Assembly (NCBI GenBank): GCA_944391055.1
Contig: CALXSF010000005.1
Span: 28,922-92,921, forward strand
DNA length: 64,000 bases
Source: an uncultured Kiritimatiellota bacterium
GTDB lineage: Bacteria; Verrucomicrobiota; Kiritimatiellia; RFP12; DVOR01
Direction of reading: 5' to 3'
Program-made: the position numbers and the translations under genes
Shown here: piece after piece, positions 52,213-55,496 of the stretch
Layout: each line of letters starts with the position of its first letter
Numbering within the stretch: the first letter of the stretch is position 1
Notes under the pieces: model-generated
Told to the model about the DNA's origin: nothing
Seen by the model: the letters and a program-made list of their open reading frames with translations, nothing else
Databases searched by the model: none

Positions 52213-53277
52213 ATGAAACGACATTGGAGTCTCTTTGCGCTTGGAGTGCTTCTCCTCGCCCCCTCGGCGTGGGCGGAGTTCGCGTACTCCGCTTATTTCT
52301 GCCGGGAGGCGCTGCTGGATGACGGCTCCACCCTTTCCTCGCTGCCGCTCGCTTATGCCGATGGCACGCCCGCGGCGGGGGAAACGCTGGCCTTCCTCTA
52401 CGTGGTGCCCGAGGCGGGCGTCGCGTTCACGGAGGAGGATTCGCCGCCCTTCACCTTTGCGTCCGATGGCACGGTGACGCTTGGGGAGGGGGCCGCGCGC
52501 GTCGTGTGGGCGGCCATGGGTGATGTGGAGTCGCCCAACCACGGCGTGGCCTTGGGGGCGGATGGGCTGCCCGCGTTGAACTATGTCAATGGGTTCGGTT
52601 TTTGCACCGCGAACTGGCCTGCCGAGGCGGGGGAGCCTCCGGCCACGGCCTATCTTTATGTAATCCATTTCGACACCCGCGCCGTCGACCCTGCCACGGG
52701 CGAGATGACGGTCGCCGCGCCCGTCGTTTCGGGGGACAAAGGGCCCGCCCCCCTCTCCGCGTGGGGCGCCACGCTCTGCGAGGTCTTTTCTTGGCCGACG
52801 ATGGGGCCCGGCGTGGCGGAGTATCTGAATCTGCCTTATGAGGGCGAGGGGAACGTCCGGCTGGCCGCCGCGGAGCAGCCCGTCGCGCCCATCACCGAGC
52901 TTGTCGTGGAGGGCGAGACGCTCACGGATCCCGACGCGATCGCGGCCGCACTTGCCCCCGCCGTCTCCGGTTTCGCCGCCGCGGAGGATGAGGAGGGCGA
53001 CCCGGTCTTCACGTTCAGTTTCGCTCCCGCGCGGGTGCCCGAGGCCACCACCTACACGCTTTGGACCTCCGACCGCTTGGACGGCGGGTGGATGACCTTC
53101 GACGCGCTCCTTCAACAAAAAGGGCTTGCCCAATCCGGCGGGGTGCGCTATACTAAGTGGCGTATTCAGAAGGAAGGGTCTGTGGCAATCCCGCGCCTTC
53201 CCGATGAGGACACGCGCTTTTACCGCCTTCGCGGCGACATCGACGTAGGAACGAACGAAAGCGTCAAAGGAGAATGA
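52213..53277 (+). CDS. Secreted hypothetical protein (354 aa)
   Basis: Signal peptide (MKRHWSLFALGVLLLAPSAWA). ATG at 52213 is 40 nt after the repeat array. No recognized domain. Upstream ORF-track residues are repeat-encoded. Confidence 0.5.
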   Translation: MKRHWSLFALGVLLLAPSAWAEFAYSAYFCREALLDDGSTLSSLPLAYADGTPAAGETLAFLYVVPEAGVAFTEEDSPPFTFASDGTVTLGEGAARVVWAAMGDVESPNHGVALGADGLPALNYVNGFGFCTANWPAEAGEPPATAYLYVIHFDTRAVDPATGEMTVAAPVVSGDKGPAPLSAWGATLCEVFSWPTMGPGVAEYLNLPYEGEGNVRLAAAEQPVAPITELVVEGETLTDPDAIAAALAPAVSGFAAAEDEEGDPVFTFSFAPARVPEATTYTLWTSDRLDGGWMTFDALLQQKGLAQSGGVRYTKWRIQKEGSVAIPRLPDEDTRFYRLRGDIDVGTNESVKGE

Positions 53278-53279
53278 CG

Positions 53280-54107
53280 ATGCGAAAAGTTATTGCAGTG
53301 TTTGCCGGGGTGGCCGTGGCCGGCCTCGCCCTCGCCGCCAACGTCACGACGGCCAATACCGCCGTGGTCGTCCGGAAGAACCCCGTGGAGAGCGCCGACG
53401 GCTGGCAGTTCCTCTGCGTCCCCGTCCGCGGCTTCGACATCACCGGCCAAGGGAAAGGGCTGGGCGTGCCGCTGAACGACGTGCTCCCCCCCGCCGATTT
53501 CCCCGAGGGAACGGAACTTCGGATTCAGGGCAACAGCACGGGCGCGTCCCTTGACGCCGAGGGTACGGCGGAACTTGCGCCGGACGGTGTTTACACCGTG
53601 GCGGAGTCTGGGGACGCTTGGCAGGTTTCGGAAGGCGGGACGGGTTCCGGAGAGGATTTGCTCAAGGCCGGTGCGTTTCTGTGGCTGAAGGTTGGGGGGA
53701 CGTCGGCTCCGAAGTTGCTGGGCGGTCTTTCGTTCGCCTTCGCCTCGAATACCGCCACCGAAACCCCTGTCACCACCTTCTGCGGGGAGCAGAACACCCT
53801 CGCCAAGGGGGAGACATTGGTTCCCGCCGAAACGGCGCCCGGCATGGTGGCCTACGGCAACGACACTGACACGGCGGTGGATGTTACTGCCGTTTGCGCC
53901 GAGCCGCAGGATGGCGACGAAATCCTGCGGATTAAAGACGGCGGCAAGGAATATCAATACTTGGAGTACATGAATAGCCGCGGACAATCTGGGTGGTATT
54001 ATTTCGGCACTAACGGGAAGGTGAAAATCCCCGAGACCCAGGGCGAATGGATTCGCACGATCGCCGCCGGCGAGGCGTTCTATTACTATCGTCGCCCGAC
54101 GGAGTGA
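53280..54107 (+). CDS. Secreted hypothetical protein (276 aa)
   Basis: AAGGAG RBS 8 nt upstream of ATG (MRKVIAVFAGVAVAGLALAANV...). A TATACT promoter-like element at 53161-53166 sits inside the end of the previous gene. Confidence 0.5.
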   Translation: MRKVIAVFAGVAVAGLALAANVTTANTAVVVRKNPVESADGWQFLCVPVRGFDITGQGKGLGVPLNDVLPPADFPEGTELRIQGNSTGASLDAEGTAELAPDGVYTVAESGDAWQVSEGGTGSGEDLLKAGAFLWLKVGGTSAPKLLGGLSFAFASNTATETPVTTFCGEQNTLAKGETLVPAETAPGMVAYGNDTDTAVDVTAVCAEPQDGDEILRIKDGGKEYQYLEYMNSRGQSGWYYFGTNGKVKIPETQGEWIRTIAAGEAFYYYRRPTE

Positions 54108-54147
54108 GCCATTATTTGGGAAAGTTTTCAGCAGCAAGGAGAAAGAG

Positions 54148-54789
54148 ATGAGAAAAGTTTTGTTTGCGTTGCTGGGTGTGGCGATTAGCGGGATGGTTTC
54201 TGCGATTACGTGTGAGTGGTCGTGGTCGTCCAATGGGAGTGCTTGGCAGTCCAATTCGGCTATTTACATGGTTTACTCGCAGGTCCAGTTGGATGCCGAT
54301 CAGGTGGTCAGTGCCGCCAATGTGTCTTATGGTTCTTCGGTAACGGGTGAGAAGAACAGCACGGGGGGAGCGTGGACGTCTCCGACTATGCCGGGATCCA
54401 ATACGATTGTGGTCAGCAGTCCGGCGACCAAGTCTAATACTGAGGCTGGGTCGATTCAGGGTAATGCAGGTTTCTCCGAGGGTAATTTCGTTTGGAACGA
54501 CAGTATGTTTGGGGAGGGCGGCGGTTACTTTTATTTGGTGATTTTCAACAGTACGAGCGCAGACACCGCCACGGAGTTTGCCGTCGCCCAAGCCGGGGAG
54601 AGCGGGCACTTGGTGAAAAATGGCAATGGAGTGGCCATTCCAAGGCCTGGTGAAGATCCTTTGCCAATCAACTACATCGACCCGGTTTGGATTGGCGGCA
54701 CGTTCCGTGATGCGGCGCCGGAGCCGACGGCGCTGGCGTTGCTGGCGCTGGGCGTGGCCGGGGCGGCGCTTCGCCGCCGCGTGCGCTGA
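54148..54789 (+). CDS. PEP-CTERM sorting-domain secreted protein (213 aa)
   Basis: RBS AAGGAGAAAGAG. Signal peptide MRKVLFALLGVAISGMVSA. C-terminal PEPTALALLALGVAGAALRRRVR is a PEP-CTERM anchor. Confidence 0.7.
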   Translation: MRKVLFALLGVAISGMVSAITCEWSWSSNGSAWQSNSAIYMVYSQVQLDADQVVSAANVSYGSSVTGEKNSTGGAWTSPTMPGSNTIVVSSPATKSNTEAGSIQGNAGFSEGNFVWNDSMFGEGGGYFYLVIFNSTSADTATEFAVAQAGESGHLVKNGNGVAIPRPGEDPLPINYIDPVWIGGTFRDAAPEPTALALLALGVAGAALRRRVR

Positions 54790-54828: not shown

Positions 54829-54866
54829 TGTGGGCGCCCGATTGGGCGCCCGCCTCTTTTTTGCCC
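54829..54866 (+). terminator. Rho-independent terminator after the PEP-CTERM gene
   Basis: gggcgcccgattgggcgccc (palindromic GC stem) followed by gcctctttttt. Confidence 0.55.
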
Positions 54867-54993
54867 GCCGGGCGTCGCGGGGGGAGGGCGTTTGGGCGGG
54901 GTGGGGATGGGGCCGCGCAGGGCGTCCTTCGCGTGGAGGCGCGCGTTCTGCTGTGCGGATTTGCTACATTGCGCGGCAAAAAGAGGAAACGCC

Positions 54994-55266
54994 ATGGTCA
55001 CCGCCAATCTCACCATTCGTCTGGATCCCTCGCTGAAGCAGGAGGCCGAGACGCTCTTCGCCAAGCTGGGGATGAACCTTTCCACCGCCGTCAACGTCTT
55101 CTTCCGGCAGTCGCTGGAATATGGCGGCATTCCCTTCGACATCCGCACCAAGCGCCCCAACAACGCCACCTTGGAGGCCCTCGCCGAGGCCCGCGCCCTC
55201 GCCCACGACCCGAACGCGAAGTTTGTCACCTCGGTCGAGGCGTTGATGGAGGACTTGGACAAATGA
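54994..55266 (+). CDS. dinJ: DinJ/RelB-family antitoxin
   Basis: MVTANLTIRLDPSLKQEAETLFAKLGMNLSTAVNVFFRQSLEYGGIPFDIR is a ribbon-helix-helix DinJ-type antitoxin. 90 aa. RBS AGAGGA upstream. Confidence 0.7.
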   Translation: MVTANLTIRLDPSLKQEAETLFAKLGMNLSTAVNVFFRQSLEYGGIPFDIRTKRPNNATLEALAEARALAHDPNAKFVTSVEALMEDLDK

Positions 55267-55420
55267 GGTATGCGATCATCGCGACCATGCGTTGGCCGGC
55301 GACTACGCGGGCTTCCGCGAATGCCACATCCAGCCCGATTGGCTGCTGATCTACGCCATCGACAACGGCGCGCTGATCCTGACCCTCTCGCGCACGGGCA
55401 CGCACAGCGACCTCTTCTGA
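55265..55420 (+). pseudogene. Truncated YafQ/RelE-like toxin remnant (C-terminal ~45 aa only, out of frame with the coupled ATG)
   Basis: Frame +3 encodes ...HALAGDYAGFRECHIQPDWLLIYAIDNGALILTLSRTGTHSDLF*. This matches the YafQ C-terminus (GYRxxHVxPDWxLIY...RTGTHxxLF). The ATG at 55263 overlapping the dinJ stop is in a different frame and gives a 28-aa nonsense peptide. The N-terminal half of the toxin is missing. Confidence 0.55.
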
Positions 55421-55477
55421 CCCCATCCTCGGAAGGGCCGTCGCCTTCGCGCCGTCGCCGCGCGGGGGCGTCCTTTT

Positions 55478-55496
55478 CTGTGGTATACTAGGGGCA
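55478..55496 (+). promoter_or_regulatory. Extended -10 promoter (TGTGGTATACT) immediately upstream of the dCMP deaminase ATG; possible leaderless mRNA
   Basis: tctgtggtatactaggggcATG. Only ~6 nt separate the -10 (55484-55489) from the ATG at 55496. Confidence 0.4.

What the first reader, a model, noticed from the sequence alone, without database searches (positions are those of the whole stretch)
54994..55420. Intact DinJ antitoxin followed by a decayed YafQ toxin remnant
A full-length DinJ-type antitoxin ORF keeps its RBS and the typical ATGA stop/start coupling. The downstream ATG opens a 28-aa nonsense frame, while the recognizable YafQ C-terminus (ECHIQPDWLLIYAIDNGALILTLSRTGTHSDLF) survives only in the +3 frame and lacks its N-terminal half. 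This looks like a toxin inactivated by deletion/frameshift with the antitoxin retained. A retained antitoxin could still work as a transcription factor or cross-neutralize paralogous toxins.
Basis: seen in the sequence. Interest (0 to 1): 0.5.

Follow-up and report, generated by a model that had tools for sequence, protein, structure and literature searches.

The report
Decaying dinJ-yafQ toxin-antitoxin locus
This is an ordinary eroding toxin-antitoxin pair in a gut Kiritimatiellia bacterium: one old 118-base deletion destroyed the YafQ toxin gene, and the DinJ antitoxin gene that is still readable now appears to be drifting without selection.

Summary
A full-length 90-aa RelB/DinJ antitoxin gene (54994-55266) overlaps by ATGA a broken YafQ gene (55263-55420).

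The break is one internal 118-nt deletion, not a 5' truncation.
- Codons 1-8 (MRYAIIAT) are the authentic toxin N-terminus.
- Codons 46-91 follow in the -1 frame.
- The junction, ATCGCGACC (55278-55286), lies on a short direct repeat. The closest intact relative carries that repeat twice, exactly 118 nt apart.

Eighteen further loci, each from a different sample or run and covering at least six haplotypes, share the same junction. It is therefore one old, fixed event and not a sequencing error.

Since the deletion, dinJ has a pN/pS of about 0.9. Its neighbours score 0.00-0.14, and dinJ in intact modules scores 0.10-0.29. Replacements hit otherwise conserved residues, and three haplotypes have lost the AGGAGG ribosome-binding site. 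The antitoxin is therefore most likely decaying too, not retained for a new role.

Sister species have no module at this site. Toxin-first erosion of chromosomal toxin-antitoxin (TA) loci is well documented, so interest is low.

The parts
54830..54863 (+). Terminator-like hairpin plus T-run that ends the upstream PEP-CTERM gene. It marks the 5' limit of the TA transcription unit.
   Evidence: stem 54830-54853, tail CTCTTTTTTG.
54870..54993 (+). dinJ upstream region, the presumed promoter/operator. It includes the ribosome-binding site GAGG at 54983-54986, 7 nt before the ATG. No promoter or operator was identified.
   Evidence: No sigma-70-like site was found. The only inverted repeat is GCCGCGCA/TGCGCGGC, 50 nt apart. 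This is the most polymorphic segment of the locus (pi 0.068), with a 21-nt indel. AGGAGG is changed to AGGCGA in L050, L052 and L059.
54994..55266 (+). dinJ: an intact 90-aa RelB/DinJ-family antitoxin ORF.
   Evidence: TIGR02384 positions 1-85 of 85, E 3e-20; Pfam RelB E 8e-11. Matches the DinJ chains of 9lew, 4q2u and 4ml0. pN/pS is about 0.9 within the population.
55263..55286 (+). yafQ pseudogene, 5' piece: the authentic start codon (ATGA overlap with the dinJ stop) and codons 1-8, MRYAIIAT.
   Evidence: Intact relatives begin MKYEVVVT or MKYEVIVT at the same ATGA overlap.
55278..55286 (+). Deletion junction ATCGCGACC: the single surviving copy of the short direct repeat between which 118 nt were lost.
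   Evidence: A single 118-nt gap against L005. L005 and L016 carry TCGTGAC at toxin nt 17 and nt 135, an offset of 118. The junction is identical in all 18 other loci.
55280..55420 (+). yafQ pseudogene, 3' piece: codons 46-91 plus the stop, in the -1 frame relative to the start codon. It carries the conserved RDH, ECH, QPD, GTH and DLF motifs.
   Evidence: Pfam YafQ_toxin positions 42-87 of 88, E 1.3e-20. It is 88-89% identical to full-length 90-91-aa YafQ proteins.
55263..55349 (+). The 28-aa ORF left by the frameshift: 8 authentic residues followed by 20 out-of-frame residues. It is probably still reached by translational coupling, and no function is expected.
   Evidence: No family match. 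Its sequence varies among haplotypes.
55442..55480 (+). Terminator-like hairpin plus T-rich tail immediately after the toxin remnant. It marks the 3' limit of the TA unit.
   Evidence: 11-pair stem, tail TCCTTTTCTG.

Best explanation
This is a chromosomal type II dinJ-yafQ module caught part-way through erosion.

An ancestor of this gut Kiritimatiellia population acquired a standard module: a 90-aa DinJ and a 91-aa YafQ joined by an ATGA overlap. It landed at a variable spot just upstream of a conserved dCMP-deaminase block.

A single deletion then removed 118 nt between two copies of a 7-9-nt direct repeat inside yafQ. The mechanism, replication slippage or microhomology-mediated deletion, is inferred. 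The deletion took out codons 9-45 and shifted the frame. By alignment to YafQ these codons cover the region of helices alpha1 and alpha2, which the protein needs to bind the ribosomal A site. The catalytic half of the gene can therefore no longer be translated. The deletion became fixed.

With no toxin left to neutralise, dinJ lost its selective value. Its ORF is still open, but it and its expression signals are now accumulating changes at about the neutral rate.

Shown: the anatomy, the breakpoint, the single origin and fixation of the deletion, and the relaxed constraint on dinJ. Inferred: the slippage mechanism, the horizontal acquisition, and the absence of any residual DinJ function.
For: 1. 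Family assignments and profile coverage.
2. There is one clean 118-nt gap against the closest intact module, L005. 158 + 118 = 276 nt, which is 91 codons plus a stop.
3. L005 has TCGTGAC at toxin nt 17 and nt 135, an offset of 118. The window's junction is ATCGCGACC.
4. All relatives carry a 90-aa DinJ and a 91-aa YafQ with the ATGA overlap.
5. The same junction is present in 18 other loci, each from a different sample or run and built by several assemblers, covering at least six haplotypes. No intact YafQ more than 89% identical to the remnant was found among 5.8 billion proteins.
6. dinJ has a pooled pN/pS of 0.91. The deaminase scores 0.00, g374 0.09 and the lyase 0.14.
7. Segregating N:S sites are 15:7 in dinJ, or 10:7 if the codon 77-79 block counts as one event. 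In the flanks they are 10:46. Fisher p = 7e-5 and 0.002 respectively.
8. dinJ in intact modules has dN/dS of 0.10-0.29.
9. dinJ nucleotide diversity (0.035) is at least that of the toxin remnant (0.024) and the intergenic DNA (0.027). The deaminase has 0.007.
10. Replacements hit residues that are conserved in relatives: L41P, P55L, D72E.
11. The ribosome-binding site AGGAGG is AGGCGA in three loci, and the upstream region has a 21-nt indel.
12. Sister species keep deaminase-g374-lyase but have unrelated upstream genes and no TA remnant.
13. Toxin-first erosion is the commonest pseudogenisation state reported for chromosomal TA loci (PMC13617665).
14. YafQ alpha1 and alpha2 are needed for A-site binding (PMC4652777).
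Against: - The dinJ ORF is open in every contig, including 23 contigs found through the deaminase and so sampled independently of dinJ. A rough neutral expectation is about 2.3 disabling events, giving P(0) of about 0.1 with a range of 0.002-0.45. Some residual selection against disruption cannot be excluded.
- pN/pS near 1 cannot separate neutrality from a mix of purifying and diversifying selection.
- dinJ adjoins a hypervariable, probably recombining region, which may have imported some of its variation. The six-base block at codons 77-79 is an example.
- Only 64 kb of the genome could be searched for a paralogous toxin.
- Expression was not tested.
Confidence: 0.85

Rival explanations
1. 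The antitoxin has been domesticated. After the toxin was lost, DinJ was kept as a transcription factor, as an anti-addiction or immunity factor against incoming YafQ-bearing mobile elements, or as a neutraliser of a paralogous toxin. Its many amino-acid variants would then reflect diversifying selection.
For: - The ORF is open and 90 aa long in all contigs, including those sampled through the neighbouring deaminase.
- The ATGA coupling is retained in every locus, and a recognisable ribosome-binding site in most.
- Related intact dinJ-yafQ modules circulate in Kiritimatiellota MAGs from the same studies.
- The literature discusses anti-addiction roles for orphan antitoxins (PMC7192599).
Against: - pN/pS of about 0.9 is what neutrality predicts. 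The changes are spread over both the DNA-binding and the toxin-binding halves and include a proline in a helix (L41P) and loss of the conserved P55.
- The ribosome-binding site is destroyed in three loci, and the upstream region is the most variable segment of the locus.
- No YafQ or DinJ paralogue lies in the 64-kb window.
- Cross-talk between non-cognate pairs is reported to be rare (abstract of PMC12301738).
Confidence: 0.1
2. The C-terminal YafQ fragment is itself expressed, either as a small protein from the TTG at 55292 (42 aa) or through a -1 ribosomal frameshift from the MRYAIIAT frame. It would then retain some activity.
For: - The fragment keeps all the conserved His/Asp/Phe motifs.
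- In the old toxin frame its polymorphisms are 6 synonymous to 3 non-synonymous.
- A gene caller once called the 42-aa ORF as a gene (P0020).
Against: - The TTG start is CTG in L050, L051, L052 and L059, and no Shine-Dalgarno sequence precedes it.
- There is no slippery heptamer at the junction (sequence).
- The 6:3 ratio is not significant once the all-transition, GC-to-AT mutation spectrum is allowed for: expected synonymous fraction 0.36-0.50, p = 0.05-0.25.
- The fragment lacks alpha1 and alpha2, which YafQ needs to bind the ribosome (PMC4652777).
- The nearest database hits are almost all full-length 90-95-aa toxins, with a few shorter entries mostly on short contigs. They do not form a short-protein family.
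Confidence: 0.02
3. It is an assembly or sequencing artefact, and the real genome carries an intact yafQ.
For: None found. Short direct repeats can in principle cause local misassembly.
Against: The identical junction appears in 18 other loci, each from a different sample or run. The contigs come from different pipelines (NODE_-type, k141_-type, scaffold_ and Logan contigs) and sit on diverged haplotype backgrounds. A 7-9-nt repeat is far shorter than any read.
Confidence: 0.01

Closest known systems
E. coli DinJ-YafQ type II toxin-antitoxin system (PDB 4Q2U, 4ML0; also 9LEW)
   Same: The same two families in the same order, with the antitoxin first and a ribbon-helix-helix-type RelB/DinJ antitoxin of about 90 aa. 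Intact relatives of this locus align end to end with YafQ chains at E of about 1e-17. The remnant keeps the motifs that match by position the catalytic H50/H63, D67, H87 and F91 (PMC4652777; the correspondence is inferred from alignment).
   Different: Here the toxin gene lacks codons 9-45 and is frameshifted, so no functional pair exists. DinJ sequence similarity to the E. coli protein is low (E 1e-4). The host is a Kiritimatiellia gut bacterium.
Eroded chromosomal TA loci with toxin-only pseudogenisation (Photorhabdus survey, Mol Biol Evol 2026, PMC13617665)
   Same: Both are acquired at a high-turnover spot without conservation of the neighbourhood, then lose the toxin while the antitoxin ORF persists. 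In that survey, toxin-only (185 copies) and both-gene (186) pseudogenisation far outnumber antitoxin-only loss (8). In this case too the toxin was lost first, and sister species have an empty site.
   Different: A different phylum and TA family. Here the single causal mutation is mapped, and population data show directly that the surviving antitoxin is under relaxed constraint.
[quoted passage not shown]
   Same: An antitoxin ORF with no functional partner, sitting in the context of a degraded pair. That paper lists 'degrading TA pairs' as one source of such orphans.
   Different: That paper leaves new functions for orphans, such as anti-addiction, as an open possibility. At this locus the substitution pattern argues against a maintained function.

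Membership tests
RelB/DinJ antitoxin family (TIGR02384 / PF04221) | Full-length match to the family profile above the curated cut-off | tested here: met
   TIGR02384 scores 72.1 bits against a cut-off of 45.65, over positions 1-85 of 85. PF04221 scores 42.2 bits against 22.4.
RelB/DinJ antitoxin family (TIGR02384 / PF04221) | Encoded immediately upstream of, and translationally coupled to, a RelE/YafQ-type toxin gene | tested here: met
   The ATGA overlap with the yafQ start is at 55263-55266. Intact relatives L005-L013 and L017-L019 have the same arrangement.
RelB/DinJ antitoxin family (TIGR02384 / PF04221) | Neutralises its cognate toxin and represses its own promoter | not testable with these tools
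   No cognate toxin is left and no operator was identified. This needs kill-rescue and EMSA assays.
YafQ toxin family (PF15738 / TIGR00053) | Sequence homology to YafQ | tested here: met
   PF15738 E 1.3e-20. The remnant is 88-89% identical to full-length YafQ proteins over 47-48 aa.
YafQ toxin family (PF15738 / TIGR00053) | Complete domain of about 90 aa, including helices alpha1 and alpha2, in one open reading frame | tested here: not met
   Only profile positions 42-87 of 88 are covered. TIGR00053 scores 53.3 bits, below its cut-off of 87.25. An internal 118 nt are missing and the two pieces are in different frames.
YafQ toxin family (PF15738 / TIGR00053) | Catalytic His/His/Asp/His and C-terminal Phe residues | tested here: inconclusive
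   The motifs RDH, ECH, QPD, GTH and DLF are encoded in the remnant. They match by position the catalytic residues described in PMC4652777. They are untranslatable, and the correspondence was not checked on a structure.
Functional type II toxin-antitoxin system | Both an active toxin gene and an antitoxin gene are present | tested here: not met
   The toxin is a pseudogene in all 19 loci examined, counting the window.
Functional type II toxin-antitoxin system | Purifying selection on the antitoxin | tested here: not met
   pN/pS is 0.91, against 0.00-0.14 in the flanking genes and 0.10-0.29 in intact modules.

The most novel reading that the evidence does not exclude
The orphan DinJ is not junk. 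It is kept open as an 'anti-addiction' immunity factor against the related dinJ-yafQ modules that circulate among gut Kiritimatiellota. Its unusually high amino-acid polymorphism, including the FVT/RYD swap in the toxin-binding tail, would then be diversifying selection tracking different incoming toxins.
Probability: 0.08. Interest if true: 0.45.

Novelty: new member of a known kind. Interest (0 to 1): 0.15.

Why it matters
It matters little beyond annotation.
- The toxin should be labelled a pseudogene.
- The antitoxin should be labelled a probably non-functional orphan.
- The 28-aa and 42-aa ORFs should not be called genes.

It is nonetheless a clean, base-resolved example of the toxin-first erosion pathway in an uncultured phylum. 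The causal microhomology deletion is identified, and population data show how quickly constraint on an antitoxin relaxes once its toxin is gone. That could serve as a calibration case for surveys of orphan antitoxins.

Tried and rejected
- Sequencing error: rejected. Five sequences are 100% identical over 621 nt, and the junction is shared by 18 other loci.
- A pre-deletion allele in the same lineage: none found. The best full-length toxin is only 88-89% identical, and every dinJ cluster member examined has the 228-229-nt spacing to the deaminase.
- An intact YafQ or DinJ paralogue in the window: HMMs built from the hits found only the locus itself. The rest of the genome is not available.
- Calibrating with within-population diversity of intact modules (L006-L009; L010-L013 and L017): uninformative, with only 0-1 differences. 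I used between-module dN/dS instead, which is near saturation at synonymous sites.
- Promoter and operator: no sigma-70-like site and no convincing palindrome, so I make no claim.
- Selection on the remnant in the toxin frame: 6 synonymous to 3 non-synonymous, not significant given the mutation spectrum.
- Rfam and tRNA scans of the window: nothing found. There is no tRNA-type integration site in the window.
- The organism's own genome was not among the species-representative genomes. The best dinJ hit there was 68% identical. I infer the taxonomy from the names that sources give to the closest deaminase and dinJ homologues.
- Structure prediction was not run. It would add nothing to a frameshifted pseudogene.

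Full report
**The observation**

A 90-aa ORF runs from ATG 54994 to TGA 55264-55266, with GAGG seven bases upstream of the start. It matches the RelB/DinJ antitoxin profile end to end (TIGR02384 positions 1-85 of 85, E 3e-20; Pfam RelB E 8e-11). It also matches the DinJ chains of solved DinJ-YafQ complexes (9lew, 4q2u, 4ml0).

An ATG at 55263 overlaps the stop codon (ATGA). It opens a 28-aa ORF that matches no family. A second frame reads ...DHRDHALAGDYAGFRECHIQPDWLLIYAIDNGALILTLSRTGTHSDLF* up to 55420. That frame matches Pfam YafQ_toxin positions 42-87 of 88 (E 1.3e-20). It scores below the full-length YafQ cut-off of NCBIfam (53.3 against 87.25 bits).

**What the lesion is**

A search with the remnant returned thousands of YafQ toxins. 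The best are 90-91 aa long and 88-89% identical over the surviving 47-48 residues. One of them, P0002, begins MKYEVVVTRQFRKDY.... The window's 'nonsense' ORF begins MRYAIIAT, so its first eight codons are the genuine toxin N-terminus.

P0002's locus, L005, carries a 90-aa DinJ and a 91-aa YafQ with the same ATGA overlap. Aligned to L005, the window shows one clean gap of 118 nt and nothing else. The arithmetic fits: 158 nt remain, and 158 + 118 = 276 nt, which is 91 codons plus a stop.

In L005 the heptamer TCGTGAC occurs at toxin nt 17 and again at nt 135, exactly 118 nt apart. The window's junction reads ATCGCGACC (55278-55286). In the start frame this is I-A-T (codons 6-8). In the surviving toxin frame it is R-D-(H) (codons 46-48). 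The lesion is therefore an internal deletion between two copies of a 7-9-nt direct repeat. It removes codons 9-45 plus one base and shifts the rest into the -1 frame. Slippage or microhomology-mediated deletion is the inferred mechanism.

By alignment to YafQ, the lost segment covers the N-terminal helices. In E. coli YafQ, alpha1 and alpha2 are required for binding the ribosomal A site, while the catalytic H50/H63, D67, H87 and F91 lie in the C-terminal half (PMC4652777). The remnant still encodes the corresponding motifs but cannot be translated from the coupled start.

**It is not an error, and it happened once**

The same DinJ protein is encoded on 19 contigs. Four of them, from different samples, are 100% identical to the window over 621 nt including the junction. 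The 90%-identity cluster of this DinJ holds 21 protein variants. The 15 that were listed are all 90 aa long.

I fetched loci for several variants, and also loci ascertained through the neighbouring deaminase. In total, 18 loci besides the window carry the identical junction. Each comes from a different sample or run, they were built by several assemblers, and they represent at least six haplotypes. One of them, L059, has a point change just after the junction.

The deletion therefore predates the diversification of this population and is fixed in everything sampled. No intact toxin closer than 88-89% identity exists in the 5.8-billion-protein collection.

**Where it sits**

The closest dinJ relatives in species-representative genomes belong to uncultured Kiritimatiellaeota MAGs and to Candidatus Spyradenecus faecavium. 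The closest homologues of the adjacent dCMP deaminase are named Kiritimatiellae or Kiritimatiellia. The host is thus a gut Kiritimatiellia bacterium (inferred).

Intact relatives of the module lie in unrelated genomic contexts. Sister species with a deaminase 85-90% identical keep the deaminase-g374-lyase block. Their upstream genes are different, and they carry no trace of DinJ or YafQ. The module's GC content is 62-65%, against 68-79% downstream.

The module was therefore acquired in this lineage at a variable spot. It is bracketed by terminator-like hairpins at 54830-54853 and 55442-55470.

**Is the antitoxin retained for a function?**

| Segment | Pooled pairwise pN/pS | Nucleotide diversity, pi |
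|---|---|---|
| Upstream region | not applicable | 0.068 |
| dinJ | 0.91 | 0.035 |
| Toxin remnant | not applicable | 0.024 |
| Intergenic DNA after the remnant | not applicable | 0.027 |
| Deaminase | 0.00 | 0.007 |
| g374 | 0.09 | not computed |
| Lyase | 0.14 | not computed |

- Synonymous divergence is similar in dinJ and its neighbours.
- Segregating non-synonymous to synonymous sites are about 15:7 in dinJ. They are 10:7 if the six-base block at codons 77-79 is counted as one event. In the flanks they are 10:46. Fisher p is 7e-5 and 0.002 respectively.
- Between intact modules, dinJ has dN/dS of 0.10-0.29 (synonymous sites are near saturation).
- Replacements include L41P, P55L and D72E, at positions conserved in relatives.
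- The upstream region carries a 21-nt indel, and three loci have AGGAGG mutated to AGGCGA.

Together this is the signature of relaxed constraint.

The counter-evidence is that no disrupted dinJ allele was seen, even among the 23 contigs sampled through the deaminase. A rough neutral expectation is about 2.3 disabling events, giving P(0) of about 0.1. The uncertainty is wide (0.002-0.45), so this is not decisive. pN/pS near 1 also cannot exclude a mixture of constraint and diversifying selection. I give the domesticated-antitoxin reading about 10%.

**Other rivals**

- The 42-aa TTG ORF has no Shine-Dalgarno sequence. Its start codon is CTG in several haplotypes.
- The junction has no slippery site for a programmed frameshift.
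- The apparent excess of synonymous changes in the remnant (6:3) is not significant. All changes are transitions, mostly at G/C sites, which raises the expected synonymous fraction to 0.36-0.50.
- No YafQ or DinJ paralogue lies in the 64-kb window. The rest of the genome could not be searched.

**Comparison with what is known**

Intact relatives are ordinary members of the DinJ-YafQ type II family. At this locus DinJ passes the sequence tests for membership. YafQ fails the test of a complete domain in one ORF, so it is a pseudogene.

Toxin-first erosion of chromosomal TA loci at high-turnover spots, leaving orphan antitoxins, has been described systematically. In Photorhabdus, 185 copies were toxin-only pseudogenes and 186 had both genes degraded, against 8 with only the antitoxin lost (PMC13617665). 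Orphan antitoxins are also abundant in Klebsiella (PMC7192599).

A second, independent toxin knock-out turned up in passing. L016, a Kiritimatiellaeota MAG, carries the L005 module at 99% identity but with Q10 changed from CAG to TAG.

**Verdict**

The core interpretation (toxin killed by a deletion with frameshift) is confirmed and refined to a single 118-nt repeat-mediated internal deletion. The speculation that the antitoxin retains a function is not supported. This is a new instance of a well-known process, and its interest is low.

Noticed in passing
window ~52213-54789 (three genes upstream of dinJ: 354 aa, 275 aa and a 213-aa PEP-CTERM protein): These genes are hypervariable among strains of the same population: 43-94% aa identity, with lengths of 331-354, 275-286 and 200-213 aa. 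The genes downstream of the TA locus are 99-100% identical. GC drops to about 52% over 53950-54700, against 68-79% downstream. In one haplotype (L059) no PEP-CTERM gene was called. The decayed TA locus sits exactly on the boundary between the variable and conserved DNA.
   Followed up: partly
L016:2912-3187 (uncultured Kiritimatiellaeota MAG BRZ_EK__bin27, CALXMT010000060.1): This is an independent toxin knock-out in a relative. The dinJ-yafQ module is 99% identical to the intact L005 module, but toxin codon 10 is TAG instead of CAG, while dinJ is intact. It comes from a single contig, so an error or a minority variant is not excluded.
   Followed up: partly
window 54949/54950 (indel site) and 54979-54987 (ribosome-binding site): Several haplotypes (L014, L015, L044-L046, L050, L052) carry an extra 21 nt here, creating a direct repeat of TGCCGTGC(G/A)G. 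L050, L052 and L059 have the ribosome-binding site AGGAGG mutated to AGGCGA, and the window itself has AGAGG. The 94 nt upstream of dinJ are the most polymorphic part of the locus (pi 0.068).
   Followed up: partly
window 55222-55230 (dinJ codons 77-79): Two haplotype classes differ at six bases in three adjacent codons: TTT GTC ACC (FVT) against CGT TAC GAC (RYD). Both versions resemble states seen in other dinJ lineages (KYVT and KRYD/KRYT). This suggests a short recombination or gene-conversion tract rather than six point mutations.
   Followed up: no
window 55481-55496: An extended -10-like TGGTATACT ends only six bases before the ATG of the dCMP deaminase gene, and no separate Shine-Dalgarno sequence is evident. 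The segment is invariant across all haplotypes. The mRNA may be leaderless or have a very short leader. This rests only on a consensus resemblance.
   Followed up: no
window 1-64000: There are no tRNA or tmRNA genes and no Rfam family at gathering threshold anywhere in the 64-kb window.
   Followed up: yes
L005:1-2490 (Logan SRR7685254 contig): The closest intact dinJ-yafQ module lies next to an AIPR (abortive-infection) protein and a D12-class methyltransferase, so it sits in a defence-island-like context.
   Followed up: no
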